The notes under the pieces: model-generated
Told to the model about the DNA's origin: nothing
Seen by the model: the letters and a program-made list of their open reading frames with translations, nothing else
Databases searched by the model: none
IMG/VR virus record: IMGVR_UViG_2693429662_000005
Length of the DNA stretch: 5,575 nucleotides
Source: a virus
Lineage: Duplodnaviria > Heunggongvirae > Uroviricota > Caudoviricetes
Strand: one strand, 5' to 3'
Program-made: the position numbers and the translations under genes
Part shown: positions 1 to 5,575 of the stretch, piece by piece
How positions within the stretch are numbered: the stretch's first letter is position 1
Layout of the letters: each line of letters opens with the position of its first letter

Positions 1-2
1 GT

Positions 3-362
3 CCGGTGTTTCATACGATAGTGTCCATTAAAAATGATGGACATTATTTTTGTAGAGCCGGAGGAAACAGACCAGACGGTTTAAATGAGCCGGTTACGGA
101 TGCAGAGTATACCGGTGAAGAGCTGGATGCAGATACCTGGCGGGCCACACTGCATATTGAGGTGTTTTTACCGGCACAGGTACCGGATTCGGAGCTGGAT
201 TCGTGGATGGAGTCCCGGATTTATCCGGTGATGAGCGATATCCCGGCTCTGGCAGGACTGATTACCACGATGGTTACGCAGGGCTATGAGTATCGTCGTG
301 ATGACGATATGGCGTTATGGAGTTCTGCAGATCTGACTTATTCCATTACATACGAGATGTGA
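3..362 (+). CDS. U: Tail terminator protein (lambda gpU-like), 5'-partial. The reading frame is open to the window start, so the true start codon lies upstream of the window.
   Basis: The C-terminal ~86 aa ([86 protein letters not shown]) are near-identical to lambda gpU as I recall it. Only frame 3 is open at the window start; frames 1 and 2 hit stops at 19-21 and 29-31. The stop TGA is at 360-362. The gene sits immediately upstream of V, as in lambda. Confidence 0.9.
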
Positions 363-369: not shown

Positions 370-1122
370 ATGGCAACACCAAATCCCCTTGAGCCGGTAA
401 AAGGTGCCGGTACCACTCTGTGGGTTTACAACGGCAAGGGTGATGCTTATGCAAACCCGTTGTCAGACGATGACTGGCTGCGACTGGCTAAGGTGAAGGA
501 TCTGACGCCGGGCGAGATGACGGCAGAACCCTACGATGATAACTACCTGGATGATGAAGACGCGGACTGGACCGCGACCGGGCAGGGGCAGAAGTCTGCA
601 GGAGATACCAGTTTTACGCTGGCCTGGAAACCGGGAGAAGAAGGTCAGAAAGGGCTTATAGGCTGGTTTGAAAGCGGGGATGTGCGGGCCTATAAAATCC
701 GTTTTCCGAACGGCACGGTGGATGTGTTTCGTGGCTGGGTCAGCAGTATCGGTAAGGCCGTGACGGCGAAAGAAGTGATCACCCGCACGGTGAAAGTGAC
801 CAACGTGGGCAAACCTTCTGTAGCGGAAGAACGCAGCAAAATTACGCCGGTCAGTGCGATTAAGGTGACGCCGACATCCGGTACGGTGGCAAAAGGGAAA
901 ACAACCACCCTGACGGTTTCTTTTGAGCCGGAAAGTGCAACAGACAAGACGTTCAGAGCGGTTTCCGCCGATCCGTCGAAAGCCACCATTAGTGTGAAAG
1001 ATATGACAATTACGGTAAACGGCGTGGCGACAGGTAAGGTGCAGATCCCTGTGGTGAGCGGAAATGGTCAGTTCGCCGCAGTGGCTGAAGTCACCGTTAC
1101 TGAAGCGGGCGCTGCAGGGTAA
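370..1122 (+). CDS. V: Major tail (tube) protein, lambda gpV-like, 250 aa, with a C-terminal Ig-like domain
   Basis: The ORF translation (…[52 protein letters not shown]…[39 protein letters not shown]…) is highly similar to lambda gpV across its full length. The C-terminal ~90 aa (…[50 protein letters not shown]…) match the Ig-like (Big_2-type) domain of gpV. Confidence 0.95.
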
Positions 1123-1124
1123 AC

Positions 1125-1129
1125 GGAGG
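1125..1129 (+). promoter_or_regulatory. Shine-Dalgarno GGAGG for G
   Basis: GGAGG lies 6 nt upstream of the ATG at 1136. Confidence 0.65.
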
Positions 1130-1135
1130 TCATAC

Positions 1136-1567
1136 ATGTTTCTGAAAACAGAACAATTTGAATATAACGGTGTGTCCGTCACGCTTTCCGAATTGTCTGC
1201 GCTGCAGCGTATCGAGCATCTTGCCCTCCTGAAACGGCGTGCAGAACAGGCAGAATCCAGCGGCAACCTGCAGGTAAGCGTGGAAGATCTCGTCAGAACC
1301 GGCGCGTTTCTGGTGGCGATGTCCCTGTGGCATAACCATCCACAGAAAACGCAGTCACCGTCAATGAATGAGGCCGTGATGAAGATAGAGCAGGAAGTGC
1401 TCACCACCTGGCCTGCCGATGCCATTGCCCGGGCGGAAGACGTGGTGTTGTGCCTGTCCGGGATGATCGAAGCTGTTCGTCCGGATACTGATATTACTGA
1501 AGTGGCGAAAAATAACGCGCTGACTGATGATGATTTTTCTGCGGGAAAGTCTTCGACGGCGAGCTGA
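1136..1567 (+). CDS. G: Tail assembly chaperone, lambda gpG-like, 143 aa. The true start is the ATG at 1136, not the upstream in-frame ATG at 1064 that begins the track ORF.
   Basis: The translation from 1136 (MFLKTEQFEYNGVSVTLSELSALQRIEHLALLKRRAEQAESSGN…GAFLVAMSLWHNHPQKTQSPSMNEAV…IEQEVLTTWP…) matches lambda gpG from its first residue. A GGAGG SD precedes 1136. The track ORF's start at 1064 lies inside the V coding region and has no gpG counterpart. Confidence 0.9.
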   Translation: MFLKTEQFEYNGVSVTLSELSALQRIEHLALLKRRAEQAESSGNLQVSVEDLVRTGAFLVAMSLWHNHPQKTQSPSMNEAVMKIEQEVLTTWPADAIARAEDVVLCLSGMIEAVRPDTDITEVAKNNALTDDDFSAGKSSTAS

Positions 1568-2007
1568 ATTTTGCCCTCAGACTGGCGCGTGAGATGGGGA
1601 GGCCTGACTGGCGCGCCATGCTTGCCGGGATGACATCCACCGAATATGCCGACTGGCACCGTTTTTACCGTACGCATTATTTTCTCGATACCCAGCTGGA
1701 TATGCATTTTTCCGGGCTGACGTACGCCGTACTCAGCCTGTTTTTTTGCGATCCGGATATGCATCCCTCTGATTTCAGTCTGCTTGCCCCCCGGCGTGAG
1801 GAAGCGCAGACGGAGATGCCGGATGAGGAAAAAATGCTGATGCAGAAAGCGGCAGGACTTGCCGGAGGCGTCCGGTTTGGTGGGGACGGAGGGCGTGAGA
1901 TTTTATCGTCTGCGGATGTGGCGGATGTCAGCGAGGATGATGTCGCATTAATGATGGCTTCAGCGGGGATTTCCGGAGGTGTGAGATATGTCCCAGCCGG
2001 TTGGTGA
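1136..2007 (+). CDS. GT: Tail assembly chaperone G-T fusion (lambda gpGT-like), made by a -1 frameshift at 1543-1549; about 290 aa (G residues 1-138 plus about 152 aa from the T frame, 1549-2007)
   Basis: The -1 frame after the slippery site reads …ELNFALRLAREMGRPDWRAMLAGMTSTEYADWHRFYRTHYF…DMHFSGLTYAVLSLFF…LMQKAAGLAGGVRFG…, which matches the T portion of lambda gpGT. There are no in-frame stops between 1549 and the ATG at 1594 that begins the track ORF. The ATG at 1594 has no convincing SD, consistent with T being expressed only as a fusion. Confidence 0.85.
1543..1549 (+). promoter_or_regulatory. -1 programmed ribosomal frameshift slippery heptamer G GGA AAG (G to GT recoding site)
   Basis: GGGAAAG is at 1543-1549, with GGA (1544-1546) and AAG (1547-1549) in the G zero frame. 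The -1 frame is open from this point through the T ORF to the stop at 2005-2007. This is the same heptamer and position (near the 3' end of G) as the lambda G/GT frameshift. Confidence 0.85.
1975..1979 (+). promoter_or_regulatory. Shine-Dalgarno GGAGG for H, lying within the 3' end of the T frame
   Basis: GGAGG lies 8 nt upstream of the H ATG at 1988. Confidence 0.6.
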
Positions 2008-4567
2008 TCTTGTTATTGACCTGAGTCTGGATGCGGTCCGTTTCGATGAGCAGATGAGCCGGGTAAGGCGTCATTTTTCCGGACTGGAGACTGACGCCAG
2101 AAAAACCGCCAGTGCTGTTGAACAGGGCCTGAGCCGCCAGGCGCTGGCTGCACAAAAAGCCGGGATTTCCGTCGGGCAGTATAAAGCGGCCATGCGAACC
2201 CTGCCCGCACAGTTTACGGATATCGCCACGCAGCTTGCCGGTGGTCAGAATCCCTGGCTGATCCTGCTGCAACAGGGCGGTCAGGTGAAGGACTCCTTCG
2301 GCGGGATGATCCCCATGTTCAGGGGGCTTGCCGGTGCGATCACCCTGCCGATGGTCGGGGTCACCTCGCTGGCGGTGGCGACAGGTGCGCTGGTGTACGC
2401 CTGGTACCAGGGAGATTCCACGCTTTCAGCGTTTAATAAAACCCTGGTTCTTTCCGGTAATCAGTCCGGACTGACTGCCGATCGCATGCTGACGCTCTCC
2501 AGAGCCGGGCAGGCAGCAGGGCTGACGTTTAACCAGGCGAGAGAGTCACTGGCAGCCCTGGTGAATGCCGGTGTGCGTGGTGGTGAACAGTTTGATGCCA
2601 TCAACCAGAGTGTCGCGCGTTTTGCTTCTGCATCCGGTGTGGAGGTGGACAAGGTTGCAGAGGCTTTCGGAAAACTGACCACCGACCCGACGTCGGGACT
2701 GATGGCGATGGCGCGCCAGTTCCGTAACGTGACGGCAGAGCAGATTGCGTATGTTGCGCAGCTGCAGCGTTCCGGTGATGAGGCCGGGGCCTTACAGGCG
2801 GCGAACGATATCGCCACGAAAGGCTTTGATGAGCAGACCCGTCGCCTGAAAGAAAACATGGGGACGCTGGAGACCTGGGCGGATAAAACAGGGAAGGCGT
2901 TCAAATCGATGTGGGATGCCATTCTGGATATTGGTCGTCCGGAATCCTCAGCGGATATGCTTGCCAGTGCGCAGAAGGCATTCGATGAGGCGGATAAAAA
3001 ATGGCAGTGGTACCAGAGCCGGAGCCAGCGCCGGGGAAAGACCTCCTCTTTCCGTGCCAACCTGCAGGGCGCATGGGATGACCGGGAAAATGCCCGTCTG
3101 GGGCTGGCAGCGGCCACGCTGCAGTCGGATATGGAAAAAGCCGGTGAACTGGCCGCCAGGGACCGGGCCGAACGGGACGCATCACAGCTGAAGTATACCG
3201 GAGAGGCGCAGAAGGCGTATGAGCGTCTGCTGACGCCGCTGGAGAAATATACCGCCCGTCAGGAAGAACTGAATAAGGCCCTGAAAGACGGGAAAATCCT
3301 GCAGGCGGATTACAACACGCTGATGGCGGCGGCGAAAAAGGATTATGAATCGACGCTGAAAAAGCCGAAGTCGTCAGGAGTCAAAGTGTCAGCCGGTGAG
3401 CGTCAGGAAGACCAGGCGCATGCTGCCCTGCTGGCGCTTGAAACCGAGCTCCGGACGCTGGAAAAACACAGCGGTGCGAATGGGAAAATCAGCCAGCAGC
3501 GTCGCGATTTATGGAAAGCGGAAAATCAGTATGCGGTCCTGAAAGAGGCAGCCACGAAACGGCAGTTATCTGAGCAGGAAAAATCCCTGCTGACCCATGA
3601 GAAAGAGACGCTGGAGTACAAACGCCAGCTGGCTGAGCTTGGCGACAAGGTTGAACACCAGAAACGGCTGAATGAGCTGGCACAGCAGGCGGCGCGGTTT
3701 GAACAGCAGCAGAGCGCGAAGCAGGCAGCCATCAGCGCAAAAGCCCGCGGCCTCACCGACCGTCAGGCGCAGCGGGAGTCGGAAGAGCAGCGCCTTCGTG
3801 AGGTGTACGGTGATAATCCGGCTGCGCTGGCGAAGGCCACATCTGCACTGAAGAACACCTGGTCTGCGGAGGAGCAGCTTCGTGGAAGCTGGATGGCCGG
3901 GCTGAAGTCCGGCTGGGGCGAGTGGGCGGAAAGTGCGACGGACAGTTTTTCGCAGGTTAAAAGCGCGGCCACGCAGACCTTTGACGGTATTGCACAGAAT
4001 ATGGCGGGGATGCTGACCGGCAGCGAACAGAACTGGCGTGGTTTCACCCGTTCCGTGCTCTCCATGCTGACAGAGATTTTTCTGAAGCAGGCCATGGTGG
4101 GGATTGTCGGGAGTATTGGCAGCGCCATGGGTGGTGCTTTCGGTGGTGGGGCGTCTGCCTCCACGGGGACGGCCATTCAGGCTGCGGCGGCGAACTTCCA
4201 TTTCGCGACCGGGGGATTTACGGGGACGGGGGGTAAATATGAACCTGCGGGAATTGTTCATCGCGGGGAGTTTGTCTTCACGAAGGAAGCAACCAGCCGG
4301 ATTGGCGTCGGCAACCTGTACCGCCTGATGCGGGGCTATGCGGAAGGTGGTTATGTGGGCGGTGCCGGAAGTCCGGCGCAGATGCGGCGTTCAGAGGGTA
4401 TCAGATTTGAGCAGAACAACAACGTGGTGATTCAGAACGACGGTATCAACGGACAGGCGGGGCCGCAGCTGATGAAGGCGGTGTATGACATGGCCCGCAA
4501 GGGGGCGCAGGATGAGCTCCGGCTGCAGTTGCGTGATGGCGGTATGTTATCGGGGAGCAGGCGATGA
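1988..4567 (+). CDS. H: Tail tape measure protein, lambda gpH-like, 859 aa
   Basis: The N-terminus (MSQPVGDLVIDLSLDAVRFDEQMSRVRRHFSG…AGISVGQYKAAMRTLPAQFTDIATQLAGGQNPWLILLQQGGQVKDSFGGMIPMFRGLAGAITLPMVG…) and C-terminus (…TQTFDGIAQNMAGMLTGSEQNWRGFTRSVLSMLTEIFLKQAMVGIVGSIGSA…KYEPAGIVHRGEFVFTKEATSRIGVGNLYRLMRGYA…) are near-identical to lambda gpH. The centre is long, charged and alpha-helical/coiled-coil-like (Q/E/K/R/A-rich). Size and position, between GT and M, match the lambda tape measure. Confidence 0.95.
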   Translation: MSQPVGDLVIDLSLDAVRFDEQMSRVRRHFSGLETDARKTASAVEQGLSRQALAAQKAGISVGQYKAAMRTLPAQFTDIATQLAGGQNPWLILLQQGGQVKDSFGGMIPMFRGLAGAITLPMVGVTSLAVATGALVYAWYQGDSTLSAFNKTLVLSGNQSGLTADRMLTLSRAGQAAGLTFNQARESLAALVNAGVRGGEQFDAINQSVARFASASGVEVDKVAEAFGKLTTDPTSGLMAMARQFRNVTAEQIAYVAQLQRSGDEAGALQAANDIATKGFDEQTRRLKENMGTLETWADKTGKAFKSMWDAILDIGRPESSADMLASAQKAFDEADKKWQWYQSRSQRRGKTSSFRANLQGAWDDRENARLGLAAATLQSDMEKAGELAARDRAERDASQLKYTGEAQKAYERLLTPLEKYTARQEELNKALKDGKILQADYNTLMAAAKKDYESTLKKPKSSGVKVSAGERQEDQAHAALLALETELRTLEKHSGANGKISQQRRDLWKAENQYAVLKEAATKRQLSEQEKSLLTHEKETLEYKRQLAELGDKVEHQKRLNELAQQAARFEQQQSAKQAAISAKARGLTDRQAQRESEEQRLREVYGDNPAALAKATSALKNTWSAEEQLRGSWMAGLKSGWGEWAESATDSFSQVKSAATQTFDGIAQNMAGMLTGSEQNWRGFTRSVLSMLTEIFLKQAMVGIVGSIGSAMGGAFGGGASASTGTAIQAAAANFHFATGGFTGTGGKYEPAGIVHRGEFVFTKEATSRIGVGNLYRLMRGYAEGGYVGGAGSPAQMRRSEGIRFEQNNNVVIQNDGINGQAGPQLMKAVYDMARKGAQDELRLQLRDGGMLSGSRR
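4552..4557 (+). promoter_or_regulatory. Shine-Dalgarno-like GGGGAG for M, inside the H 3' end
   Basis: GGGGAG lies 6 nt upstream of the M ATG at 4564. The H stop and M start overlap as ATGA. Confidence 0.55.
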
Positions 4568-4893
4568 AAACCTTTCGCTGGAAAGTGAAGCCGGATATGG
4601 AGGTGAACTCGCAGCCGTCGGTGCGTGAAGTGCGTTTTGGTGACGGGTACTCACAGCGTATGGCGGCAGGGCTGAATGCTGACCTGAAAACATACCGTGT
4701 GACGCTTTTCGTGACCCGGGAGGAGGCCCGGCATCTGGAAGCGTTCCTGGCAGAGCACGGTGGCTGGAAGGCATTTTTGTGGAAGCCACCCTATGCATAC
4801 CGGCAGATAAAGGTGACCTGTGCCGGGTGGTCTGCGCGGGTCGGGATGTTGCGCGTTGAGTTCAGCGCGGAGTTTAAGCAGGTGGTGAACTGA
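4564..4893 (+). CDS. M: Minor tail protein (tail-tip assembly), lambda gpM-like, 109 aa
   Basis: The translation (MKTFRWKVKPDMEVNSQPSVREVRFGDGYSQRMAAGLNADLKTYRVTLFVTREEA…HGGWKAFLWKPPYAYRQIKVTCAGWSARVGMLRVEFSAEFKQVVN) has the same length as lambda gpM and is highly similar to it. Confidence 0.95.
   Translation: MKTFRWKVKPDMEVNSQPSVREVRFGDGYSQRMAAGLNADLKTYRVTLFVTREEARHLEAFLAEHGGWKAFLWKPPYAYRQIKVTCAGWSARVGMLRVEFSAEFKQVVN
4880..4885 (+). promoter_or_regulatory. Shine-Dalgarno-like AGGTGG for L
   Basis: AGGTGG lies 7 nt upstream of the L ATG at 4893. The M stop and L start overlap as TGATG. Confidence 0.5.
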
Positions 4894-5575
4894 TGCAGGA
4901 CATTCATGAAGAAAGCCTGAACGAGTCGGTTAAATCAGAGCAGTCACCGCGGGTGGTGCTCTGGGAAATTGACCTGACGGTGCAGGGCGGTGAGCGGTAT
5001 TTTTTCTGCAATGAGCTGAATGAAAAAGGGGAGCCGGTCACCTGGCAGGGGCGGGAATATCAGGCATACCCGATTGACGGCAGTGGCTTTGAGATGAACG
5101 GGAAGGGCAGCAGTGCCAGACCGTCGCTGACGGTGTCCAATCTGTTTGGTCTGGTCACCGGGATGGCGGAGGACCTGCAGAGCCTGGTGGGGGCCACGGT
5201 GGTCCGCCGCCGGGTGTATGCCCGTTTTCTGGATGCGGTGAATTTTGTGGCGGGCAATCCGGAAGCGGACCCGGAGCAGGAGCTGAGCGACCGCTGGGTG
5301 GTGGAGCAGATGTCAGAGCTGACGGCCATGACAGCCTCGTTTGTGCTGGCAACACCGACGGAGACGGACGGGGCGCTGTTTCCTGGTCGCATCATGCTGG
5401 CGAACACCTGTATGTGGGATTACCGGGGAGATGAATGCGGGTATAACGGTCCTGCGGTGGCGGATGAGTTCGACAACCCCACCACGGATATCCGTAAGGA
5501 CAGATGCAGCAAGTGCATGCGCGGGTGTGAGATGCGCGGCATGGTGGCTAATTTTGGCGGTTTCCTTTCCATTAA
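4893..5575 (+). CDS. L: Minor tail / tail-tip protein, lambda gpL-like, 3'-partial (runs off the window end; not in the ORF track because it has no stop)
   Basis: My manual translation from the ATG at 4893 gives MQDIHEESLNESVKSEQSPRVVLWEIDLTVQGGERYFFCNELNEKGEPVTWQGREYQAYPIDGSGFEMNGKGSSARPSLTVSNLFGLVTGMAEDLQSLVGATVVRRRVYARFLDAVNFV…FPGRIMLANTCMWDYRGDECGYNGPAVADEFDNPTTDIRKDRCSKCMRGCEMRGMVANFGGFLSI…. This matches lambda gpL, including the C-terminal Cys-rich motif (C…C…C…C) that coordinates an Fe-S cluster in lambda gpL. Confidence 0.9.
   Translation, partial: MQDIHEESLNESVKSEQSPRVVLWEIDLTVQGGERYFFCNELNEKGEPVTWQGREYQAYPIDGSGFEMNGKGSSARPSLTVSNLFGLVTGMAEDLQSLVGATVVRRRVYARFLDAVNFVAGNPEADPEQELSDRWVVEQMSELTAMTASFVLATPTETDGALFPGRIMLANTCMWDYRGDECGYNGPAVADEFDNPTTDIRKDRCSKCMRGCEMRGMVANFGGFLSI

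What the first reader, a model, noticed from the sequence alone, without database searches (positions are those of the whole stretch)
1543..1549. Conserved G/GT -1 programmed frameshift site (G GGA AAG) with a fully open T frame
The heptamer GGGAAAG sits in the G zero frame as G GGA AAG, nine codons before the G stop. The -1 frame is open from there for about 152 codons and encodes a T-like polypeptide. This is the hallmark recoding event of siphovirus tail assembly chaperones. The slippery site is intact even though the G C-terminus just upstream appears to differ from lambda, which suggests selection on the recoding signal rather than on the flanking protein sequence.
Basis: partly seen in the sequence, partly recalled or inferred. 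Interest (0 to 1): 0.45.

Follow-up and report, generated by a model that had tools for sequence, protein, structure and literature searches.

The report
Lambda-type G/GT tail chaperone frameshift site
This is the well-known ribosome "slip" signal that lambda-like phages use to make a small amount of a longer tail-assembly helper protein; it is intact here but ordinary, and it sits in a prophage whose neighbouring tail gene U has been broken by an insertion sequence.

Summary
GGGAAAG lies at 1543-1549, phased G_GGA_AAG in gene G (1136-1567). The -1 frame from base 1549 is open for 152 codons, to the TGA at 2005-2007.

G and T match the lambda G and T equivalog models far above cut-off. They lie between the major tail gene V and the tape-measure gene H. 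The predicted 290-aa fusion fits end to end a 290-position PHROG profile whose two halves match G and T.

All 103 close relatives keep GGGAAAG. A second in-phase GGGAAAG in H drifts among the same relatives. Across 190 loci in 21 lineages, an in-phase A_AAR lysine codon always sits in the short G/T overlap. The heptamer itself varies there (GGGAAAG, GGAAAAG, GGCAAAA-TAG), and the G linker just upstream is hypervariable.

Codon-position variation shows that T-frame coding starts at the slip site, not at the ATG (1594) that RefSeq annotates. I found no supported stimulatory RNA structure.

This is the lambda G/GT -1 frameshift described in 1993, so it is already known. One caveat applies to this copy: window 1-98 is the end of an IS66-family element inserted in gene U, so this prophage is probably tail-defective.

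The parts
1..98 (-). Outer end of an ISCro1-like IS66-family insertion sequence. The tnpA start codon is at 44-42 on the - strand and the terminal repeat ends ...GAGCCGGTTAC at 98. This is context for the finding, not part of the recoding unit.
   Evidence: The first 95 bases are absent from the best prophage matches. Bases 1-98 are identical to ISCro1 copies annotated in E. coli genomes and diverge from them after 98-103.
99..362 (+). 3' remnant of tail terminator gene U (about codons 44-131). The 5' part is displaced by the IS.
   Evidence: The Pfam Phage_tail_U match covers profile positions 44-130 only. Alignment with the intact U of E. coli F8704-2 starts at about 96-99.
370..1122 (+). 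Gene V, the major tail tube protein, with a C-terminal Ig-like domain. From the literature on lambda, V is the binding partner of the T domain.
   Evidence: PF16461 at 230 bits plus Big_2 at 66 bits.
1125..1129 (+). Shine-Dalgarno GGAGG, 6 nt before the G start codon.
   Evidence: Read directly from the sequence.
1136..1567 (+). Gene G, the tail assembly chaperone (143 aa). It is the zero-frame product.
   Evidence: PF06894 at 173.5 bits and TIGR01674 (equivalog) at 167.7 bits against a cut-off of 74.45. The N-terminal roughly 112 residues align closely to lambda gpG, with few substitutions and no gaps.
1471..1535 (+). Hypervariable, acidic C-terminal linker of G, just upstream of the slip site.
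   Evidence: 60% of columns vary within the lambda-type set. Family-wide, the last 15 G codons share only 18% pairwise aa identity. The region has indels relative to lambda.
1543..1549 (+). Slippery heptamer G_GGA_AAG. tRNA-Gly and tRNA-Lys re-pair on GGG_AAA, and base 1549 is then read again as the first base of GTC.
   Evidence: Phase and sequence are. The site is invariant in 103/103 related loci, and all three third-codon positions within it are invariant across 49 distinct haplotypes. It is the same heptamer, at the same position, as lambda's.
1549..2007 (+). T segment in the -1 frame: 152 codons plus TGA. It is expressed only as the C-terminal part of the GT fusion.
   Evidence: TIGR01715 (equivalog) at 203.8 bits against a cut-off of 77.35, and PF06223. 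The 16 codons after the site are open in 39/39 distinct sequences and show third-position-biased variation in this frame.
1136..2007 (+). Predicted GT fusion of 290 aa: G residues 1-138 (1136-1549) joined to the -1 frame (1549-2004).
   Evidence: Built. On the 290-position profile phrog_32165, G matches positions 1-142 and T matches positions 140-290.
1988..4567 (+). Gene H, the tape measure protein (859 aa). Its start overlaps the end of T. From the literature on lambda, H is the binding partner of the G domain.
   Evidence: TMP_2 at 233 bits and Tape_meas_lam_C at 73.5 bits. It is 78% identical to lambda H.
4564..4893 (+). Gene M, a minor tail protein.
   Evidence: PF05939 at 128 bits.
4893..5575 (+). 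Gene L, a minor tail protein. It runs off the end of the window.
   Evidence: Annotated as 'phage minor tail protein L' at the matching position in E. coli F8704-2.

Best explanation
This is the orthologue of the bacteriophage lambda G/GT programmed -1 ribosomal frameshift site, carried by a lambdoid prophage of the Escherichia group.

Shown here:
- G (1136-1567) and the start-less T frame (1549-2007) lie between the tail tube gene V and the tape-measure gene H.
- The two frames overlap by about 10 codons, and that overlap contains G_GGA_AAG in phase.
- T-frame coding constraint begins at the heptamer.
- The site is held fixed among relatives, while the linker before it and an identical heptamer in H both vary.

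Inferred from published lambda work:
- Most ribosomes read GGA AAG and then five more codons, and terminate to give gpG (143 aa).
- A few per cent (about 4% in lambda) slip back one base while tRNA-Gly and tRNA-Lys (mnm5s2UUU) occupy GGA and AAG. They re-pair on GGG AAA and continue as GTC TTC GAC..., giving a 290-aa GT fusion.
- The G parts of gpG and gpGT coat the tape-measure protein H. The T part recruits the tube protein V. The roughly 30:1 ratio is needed for correct tails, and neither protein stays in the virion.
- No dedicated RNA stimulator seems to be needed.

In this particular genome the neighbouring gene U is split by an IS66-family element. The signal is therefore intact, but the prophage probably cannot complete tails on its own.
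For: - Sequence, phase and frames were verified.
- G matches TIGR01674 at 167.7 bits and T matches TIGR01715 at 203.8 bits, both equivalog models far above cut-off. G also matches PF06894 and T matches PF06223.
- V lies upstream and H, M and L lie downstream.
- The heptamer is the same, with the same 5-codon tail to TGA, as in lambda.
- The G-T stretch is 96.6% identical to that of the deposited Escherichia phage genomes PhiR12_1/2/4/5 (host field E. coli K-12 or C) and 95.9% identical to Stx2a phages. The G-T haplotype is 99.9% identical to the E. coli F8704-2 prophage.
- The heptamer is GGGAAAG in 103/103 related loci. It sits in an invariant 15-nt block next to the most variable segment.
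- The in-phase GGGAAAG in H changes to GGGAAAA, CGGTAAA and other forms among the same loci.
- Family-wide, 190/190 loci in 21 clusters (90% T identity) have an in-phase A_AAR lysine codon in the G/T overlap.
- The 16 codons after the site are open in 39/39 distinct sequences. Variability by codon position is 0.23 / 0.19 / 0.44 in the T frame. The zero frame has a stop in 39/39.
- The first Met in the T frame moves between residues 1 and 23, so there is no conserved start.
- phrog_32165 is a 290-position profile whose positions 1-142 match G and 140-290 match T, consistent with a GT fusion.
- Literature: lambda's shift site is G_GGA_AAG, with about 96% zero-frame reading, a 30:1 ratio and sensitivity to tRNA-Lys thiolation. 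G binds H and T binds V (PMC5009743; PMC3296357; PMC7618472; PMC4493119).
Against: - Nothing here measures translation. Neither the fusion protein nor its frequency is shown for this sequence.
- The base two positions after the heptamer differs from lambda (TCT versus TGT), so the efficiency could differ.
- Gene U is interrupted by an IS, so the site may be idle in this host.
- Within-lineage invariance is only modest statistical evidence on its own. The chance that three third positions are all invariant is about 0.06, given 61% variable third positions.
Confidence: 0.93

Rival explanations
1. The site is an intact but currently idle relic. The prophage is defective because gene U, the tail terminator, is split by an IS66-family element. 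G/GT frameshifting therefore no longer contributes to making tails in this genome, and the heptamer is conserved only through recent descent from functional phages. This does not dispute what the site is; it disputes whether it matters here.
For: Window 1-98 is the end of an ISCro1-like element, and the U homology starts only at profile position 44. The G-T sequence is 96-99.9% identical to relatives, so there has been too little time for decay to show.
Against: V, G, T, H and M are all full-length and open. The rest of the prophage is outside the window. gpU could be supplied by one of the other lambdoid prophages that E. coli genomes commonly carry (median 2 and up to 27 matching places per genome).
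Confidence: 0.35
2. T is made on its own, from the internal ATG at 1594, as a 137-aa protein. This is how RefSeq/PGAP annotates the same gene in E. coli F8704-2. Under this view the heptamer is irrelevant.
For: PGAP annotates 'phage tail assembly protein T' from the position equivalent to 1594. An ATG is present there.
Against: - There is no Shine-Dalgarno sequence before 1594.
- The 15 codons between the heptamer and this ATG are conserved as protein in the T frame, with third-position-biased variation, and are open in 39/39 distinct sequences.
- The first Met is at a different place in other lineages (residues 1, 5, 9, 15 and 23), and most lineages have Phe where this lineage has Met (LAREFGRPDW).
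- The TIGR01715 match starts at residue 5 of the -1 frame read.
- phrog_32165 matches G over positions 1-142 and T over positions 140-290 in one 290-position profile.
- Published lambda work describes gpGT as the frameshift-derived product (PMC5009743).
Confidence: 0.03
3. The G-T fusion arises by RNA polymerase slippage (loss of one A from the mRNA) rather than by ribosomal slippage.
For: Either mechanism would give the same protein. The site contains a short A run.
Against: The run is only 3 A here (4 in GGAAAAG relatives). From general knowledge of the field, that is far shorter than the homopolymer tracts known to cause transcriptional slippage. The lambda shift responds to tRNA-Lys anticodon modification, which is a ribosomal property (PMC3296357).
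Confidence: 0.01
4. The heptamer is a chance occurrence with no recoding role.
For: In-phase X_XXY_YYZ heptamers are not rare: there are six in this window's ORFs, including an identical one in H.
Against: The site lies in the only roughly 10-codon stretch that links G to T. It is at the same position in lambda. It is invariant in 103/103 relatives, whereas the H copy drifts. An equivalent A_AAR site is present in 190/190 family members.
Confidence: 0.01

Closest known systems
Bacteriophage lambda G/GT -1 programmed ribosomal frameshift (Levin, Hendrix & Casjens 1993; Xu, Hendrix & Duda 2004, 2013, 2014)
   Same: - The heptamer is identical (G_GGA_AAG), in the same phase.
- The same five codons plus TGA follow it in G.
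- The Ser-Ala-Gly-Lys / Val-Phe-Asp-Gly-Glu-Leu junction is the same.
- The gene order is the same: U-V-G-T-H-M-L.
- T is 76% identical in protein, and the first roughly 112 residues of G align closely to lambda's.
   Different: - The G linker (residues about 113-134) is unrelated in sequence and three residues longer overall.
- T is 152 aa rather than 144 aa, with small insertions and a different C-terminal end (...GGVRYVPAGW).
- The first codon after the heptamer is TCT rather than TGT.
- This copy lies in a prophage whose gene U is interrupted by an IS66-family element.
G/T of Escherichia phages PhiR12_1/2/4/5, Stx2a-converting phages and the E. coli O39:NM F8704-2 prophage
   Same: G-T DNA identity is 96.6% (PhiR12), 95.9% (Stx2a phages) and 99.9% (F8704-2). 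The heptamer and the reading frames are the same.
   Different: These records annotate G and T as two separate genes without ribosomal slippage, and T starts at an internal ATG. Their gene U is intact.
N15 / HK225 / phi80 / mEp460 / Fels-1 type G-T frameshift
   Same: The protein families are the same (T is 31-45% identical). The architecture is the same, with a -1 shift on an in-phase A_AAG lysine codon 0-5 codons before the G stop. N15 carries an annotated 'slippery sequence for -1 translational frameshift'.
   Different: The heptamer is G_GAA_AAG, so the P-site codon is not a perfect X_XXY. T is shorter (112-115 aa) and lacks the C-terminal duplication.
TP901-1 and other siphovirus tail assembly chaperone frameshifts
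   Same: The position between the major tail gene and the tape-measure gene is the same, and TP901-1 even uses the same GGGAAAG heptamer. The requirement for both products in a set ratio is also shared (PMC4493119; PMC5009743).
   Different: The published work describes low sequence similarity between the G and T ORFs of different phages, with the link resting on position and mechanism (PMC5009743). I did not compare TP901-1 gpG or gpT with the window's proteins.

Membership tests
Lambda-type tail assembly chaperone pair G/GT with -1 programmed frameshift | Two overlapping ORFs located between the major tail protein gene and the tape-measure gene | tested here: met
   The order is V (370-1122), G (1136-1567), T frame (1549-2007), H (1988-4567).
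Lambda-type tail assembly chaperone pair G/GT with -1 programmed frameshift | The upstream ORF is a gpG-family chaperone | tested here: met
   TIGR01674 (equivalog) scores 167.7 bits against a cut-off of 74.45, and PF06894 scores 173.5 bits against 27.
Lambda-type tail assembly chaperone pair G/GT with -1 programmed frameshift | The downstream ORF is a gpT-family segment, in the -1 frame relative to G, with no conserved start codon of its own | tested here: met
   TIGR01715 scores 203.8 bits against a cut-off of 77.35. The frame offset was verified. The position of the first Met varies between residues 1 and 23 across 190 loci, and coding constraint begins at the heptamer.
Lambda-type tail assembly chaperone pair G/GT with -1 programmed frameshift | A shift-prone heptamer, in phase (X_XXY_YYZ), inside the G/T overlap | tested here: met
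   G_GGA_AAG is at 1543-1549. The overlap is 1534-1564. G_GGA_AAG is listed as highly shift-prone in E. coli (PMC5009743).
Lambda-type tail assembly chaperone pair G/GT with -1 programmed frameshift | The site is conserved among homologues beyond neutral expectation | tested here: met
   The heptamer is GGGAAAG in 103/103 close relatives, and an in-phase A_AAR site is present in 190/190 family members. The linker upstream is hypervariable. The identical heptamer in H is not conserved.
Lambda-type tail assembly chaperone pair G/GT with -1 programmed frameshift | The fusion protein is actually produced, at a few per cent of gpG | not testable with these tools
   This needs expression and Western blotting or mass spectrometry. 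Only the lambda value (about 4%, ratio about 30:1) is known, and that comes from the literature.
Lambda-type tail assembly chaperone pair G/GT with -1 programmed frameshift | Both products are required for tail assembly: the G domain binds the tape measure and the T domain binds the tube protein | not testable with these tools
   This is known from lambda and TP901-1 genetics. In this prophage gene U is interrupted, so even a genetic test would need complementation.
-1 frameshift signals with a 3' stimulatory RNA structure (dnaX / IS / retroviral type) | A stable, conserved stem-loop or pseudoknot 5-9 nt downstream of the heptamer | tested here: not met
   The best local hairpin (about 1583-1618) starts 34 nt downstream. 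Its z-score is only -1.8. The alignment fold of 9 lineages gives a covariation term of +0.19, with broken pairs. There is no Rfam match.

The most novel reading that the evidence does not exclude
The divergent acidic linker and the changed 3' neighbour codon (TCT instead of lambda's TGT) might set a frameshift efficiency, and hence a G:GT ratio, different from lambda's roughly 4%. That efficiency could be co-adapted to this lineage's slightly longer T and H. A related idea is that the non-conserved in-phase G_GGA_AAG in H (3034) produces a low level of a truncated tape-measure fragment with some effect. Neither idea is excluded by the sequence analysis, and neither has positive support.
Probability: 0.08. 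Interest if true: 0.25.

Novelty: already known. Interest (0 to 1): 0.07.

Why it matters
It matters little as a discovery. The lambda G/GT frameshift has been a textbook case of programmed recoding since 1993. This copy shares lambda's heptamer, and matching tail-gene DNA occurs in most complete E. coli genomes: 4271 of 5426 have a match to the window.

The practical value is for annotation. RefSeq and several phage records call T as a stand-alone gene from an internal ATG. That drops 15 conserved codons and misses the 290-aa GT fusion. The comparative data here show where the coding really begins. They also show that the family-wide constant is an in-phase A_AAR lysine codon next to the G stop, not the exact heptamer. 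Finally, the IS66 insertion in U is a reminder that an intact recoding signal does not mean an active phage.

Tried and rejected
- **Downstream stimulatory RNA.** Folding 1550-1650 gave a hairpin at about 1583-1618 with z = -1.8. An alignment fold of nine lineages showed no covariation support. The hairpin overlaps the conserved LAREMGRPDWR peptide and starts 34 nt from the site, so I rejected it as a stimulator.
- **Upstream Shine-Dalgarno-like stimulator.** No AGGAGG-like element lies in the 25 nt before the heptamer.
- **Rfam.** No family matched anywhere in the window.
- **Solved structures by sequence.** The fusion had no PDB match at E <= 1. I did not run a structure prediction. Alignments containing locus-derived sequences are not accepted by that tool, and the equivalog HMM matches already settle family membership.
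- **Genome-contig scan for diversity.** It gave only 21 loci, most at 76% T identity. Loci with lambda's own junction context appear, so these look like lambda DNA in unrelated assemblies and add no diversity.
- **Lambda-only comparison as proof of selection.** This was insufficient, because the 15-nt shared block is matched by other equally long identical runs. The family-wide set and the H control were needed.
- **Promoter and terminator scan of 1000-2100.** Nothing was found.
- **Primary lambda papers.** The Xu 2013 and 2014 papers are not held in the library. I took the mechanism from reviews and from papers that cite them.

Full report
**What is in the sequence**

The window is a block of lambdoid tail genes on the + strand:

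| Feature | Coordinates | Note |
|---|---|---|
| U remnant | 99-362 | 3' part only |
| V | 370-1122 | major tail tube protein plus Big_2 Ig-like domain |
| G | 1136-1567 | tail assembly chaperone |
| T frame | 1549-2007 | -1 frame relative to G |
| H | 1988-4567 | tape measure, 859 aa |
| M | 4564-4893 | minor tail protein |
| L | from 4893 | runs off the window |

GGGAAAG is at 1543-1549. G starts at ATG 1136, which is preceded by GGAGG at 1125-1129. That puts base 1543 as the third base of a GCG codon, so the phasing is G_GGA_AAG. In the zero frame five more sense codons follow (TCT TCG ACG GCG AGC), then TGA at 1565-1567.

Reading from 1549 in the -1 frame gives VFDGELNFALRLAREMGRPDW... for 152 codons, up to TGA at 2005-2007. 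Upstream, the -1 frame is open only from 1534. A -1 shift can therefore join G to T only within about ten codons.

'Nine codons before the stop' is a miscount: GGA is the seventh codon before the stop.

**Is the heptamer more than chance?**

On its own it is not. The window's ORFs contain six in-phase X_XXY_YYZ heptamers. One is an identical G_GGA_AAG in H at 3034, whose -1 frame closes after 13 codons. That second copy serves as an internal control.

- Among related loci that reach the H site, it reads GGGAAAG in 31, GGGAAAA in 19, CGGTAAA in 7, plus two other forms. Lambda H has no counterpart.
- The G/T heptamer is GGGAAAG in all 103 related loci recovered from genomes and viral contigs.
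- In 93 full-span loci (49 distinct haplotypes plus the window), 36% of G-T columns vary.
- The linker just upstream (1471-1535) is the most variable segment, at 60%.
- The heptamer lies in an invariant block. 1536-1550 (15 nt) is the part shared with lambda without gaps.
- All three third-codon positions inside the heptamer are fixed, although 61% of G third positions vary.

**Family membership**

- G matches TIGR01674, 'phage tail assembly chaperone G' (equivalog), at 167.7 bits against a cut-off of 74.45. It also matches PF06894.
- The -1 frame product matches TIGR01715, 'phage tail assembly protein T' (equivalog), at 203.8 bits against a cut-off of 77.35. It also matches PF06223.
- In PHROGs, G matches positions 1-142 and T matches positions 140-290 of a single 290-position profile, phrog_32165. 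The fusion predicted here is 290 aa. This fits proteins of this fused form already being in the phage databases.
- No solved structure matches by sequence.

**Comparison with lambda**

Lambda has the same heptamer, at record position 10109, with the same five codons and TGA after it. The first roughly 112 residues of G, and T, align closely. T is 76% identical. G residues about 113-134 are unrelated and have indels.

That comparison alone does not prove selection on the signal. Bases from 1549 onward also encode the highly conserved start of T, and several other identical runs are as long or longer.

**Wider comparison**

I collected 190 loci with both genes. They fall into 21 clusters at 90% T identity, reaching down to about 31% identity to the window's T. 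Every locus has an in-phase A_AAR lysine codon in the short G/T overlap, 0-5 codons before the G stop. The heptamer itself differs between clusters:

| Shift site | Clusters | Examples |
|---|---|---|
| GGGAAAG | 1 | lambda-type cluster, which includes the window |
| GGAAAAG | 15 | N15, HK225, phi80, mEp460, Fels-1, a Providencia phage |
| GGCAAAA-TAG | 4 | |
| GGAAAAA-TAG | 1 | |

N15 carries an annotated 'slippery sequence for -1 translational frameshift'.

The 15 G codons before the site share only 18% pairwise identity. The 16 T-frame codons after it share 55%. Those 16 codons are open in 39 of 39 distinct sequences. Their variability by codon position is 0.23 / 0.19 / 0.44, the signature of coding in that frame. 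The zero frame has a stop in all 39.

The first methionine in the T frame sits at residue 1, 5, 9, 15 or 23, depending on lineage. T therefore has no conserved start, and its coding begins at the slip site.

This argues against the stand-alone T that RefSeq annotates from the ATG equivalent to 1594 and that some phage records annotate from other ATGs.

**Mechanism**

The sequence-level facts above are shown here. The rest is inferred from published lambda work.

- G_GGA_AAG is among the most shift-prone heptamers in E. coli (PMC5009743).
- In lambda, about 96% of ribosomes stay in frame and make gpG. About 4% slip to make gpGT.
- The single tRNA-Lys (mnm5s2UUU) reads both AAG and AAA, and loss of its thiolation raises slippage and lowers phage yield (PMC3296357; PMC7618472).
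- gpG and the G part of gpGT bind the tape measure H. The T part binds the tube protein V. The roughly 30:1 ratio is essential, and neither protein is in the finished virion (PMC5009743; PMC4493119).

I looked for an RNA stimulator and found none that holds up.

- The best hairpin (about 1583-1618) starts 34 nt downstream. Its z-score is -1.8, it lies over the conserved LAREMGRPDWR peptide, and it has no covariation support in nine lineages.
- No Shine-Dalgarno-like element precedes the site.
- Rfam has no match.
- Transcriptional slippage is unlikely on a run of three A.

The best prophage matches in E. coli genomes start at window position 96. Bases 1-98 are the outer end of an ISCro1-like IS66-family element. 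Its tnpA start codon is at 44 on the - strand, and its terminal repeat ends ...GAGCCGGTTAC. These bases are identical to annotated copies elsewhere and diverge from them after the end.

The U homology begins at profile position 44 of 130. Gene U, the tail terminator, is therefore split. Unless U is supplied from another prophage, this element probably cannot finish tails. The slip site is intact, and its G-T haplotype is 99.9% identical to that of the E. coli O39:NM F8704-2 prophage. It may nevertheless be idle here.

**Verdict**

- The feature is the already known lambda G/GT frameshift. It lies in a very common prophage type: 4271 of 5426 complete E. coli genomes have a match to the window, with a median of two places per genome.
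- It is ordinary and scores low.
GCC GGC AAA would be.

Noticed in passing
window 1-98 (- strand), junction at 98/99: The window starts inside an ISCro1-like IS66-family insertion sequence. Its tnpA ATG is at 44 on the - strand and its end reads ...GAGCCGGTTAC. It interrupts tail gene U after about codon 43. An ORF at 6-362 fuses 29 IS-derived codons to the U remnant. This exact junction was not found in complete E. coli RefSeq genomes; the best match covering it was 91.8% identical, at a different insertion site.
   Followed up: yes
window 3034-3040 (gene H): There is a second in-phase G_GGA_AAG in the tape-measure gene. The -1 frame closes after 13 codons. The site is not conserved (GGGAAAG 31, GGGAAAA 19, CGGTAAA 7 among relatives) and is absent from lambda H. 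It may cause a low level of truncated H, but it looks like chance and serves as a negative control for the G/T site.
   Followed up: yes
window about 1810-1878 and 1930-1995 (T residues about 88-110 and 128-149): Lambda-type T proteins carry a tandem duplication of the C-terminal motif D/E-x-x-LM-x-x-A-x-G-[IL]-x-GGVR[YF]. Here the two copies are EMPDEEKMLMQKAAGLAGGVRF and DVSEDDVALMMASAGISGGVRY. N15, phi80 and Fels-1 type T proteins (112-115 aa) have a single copy. The function of the motif is unknown to me.
   Followed up: partly
L117-L122, L171 (viral contigs); family-wide: Some distant G/T homologues replace the heptamer by GCA_AAA_TAG or GAA_AAA_TAG, with the lysine codon directly followed by the G stop codon. 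This suggests a single-tRNA-Lys slip on A_AAA helped by a slowly decoded stop codon. Most other lineages use G_GAA_AAG, which is not a perfect X_XXY_YYZ heptamer.
   Followed up: partly
L006-L022 (genome-contig hits): T-gene hits at exactly 76% identity occur on short or low-coverage contigs of unrelated assemblies: Neobacillus, Oceanobacillus, Kitasatospora, Pseudomonas, Shewanella, Enterococcus, Chromatium and others. About 20 of the fetched loci carry lambda's own junction sequence. These hits are most likely phage lambda DNA contaminating the assemblies, not real prophages.
   Followed up: partly
L003 4499-4912 (= window 1594-2007); L002 3483-3872: RefSeq/PGAP and several phage submissions annotate T as an independent gene from an internal ATG, without ribosomal slippage. 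This omits 15 or more conserved -1 frame codons and the GT fusion. The lambda record J02459 starts T at the slip site, and HK630 and HK225 label it 'tail assembly protein GT'.
   Followed up: yes
L113 (E. coli STEC388) 3001-3314: In another E. coli strain the same type of IS66-family element is inserted inside gene T of a related prophage. There it replaces everything from the portal gene to mid-T, which shows that these tail modules are recurrent IS targets.
   Followed up: no
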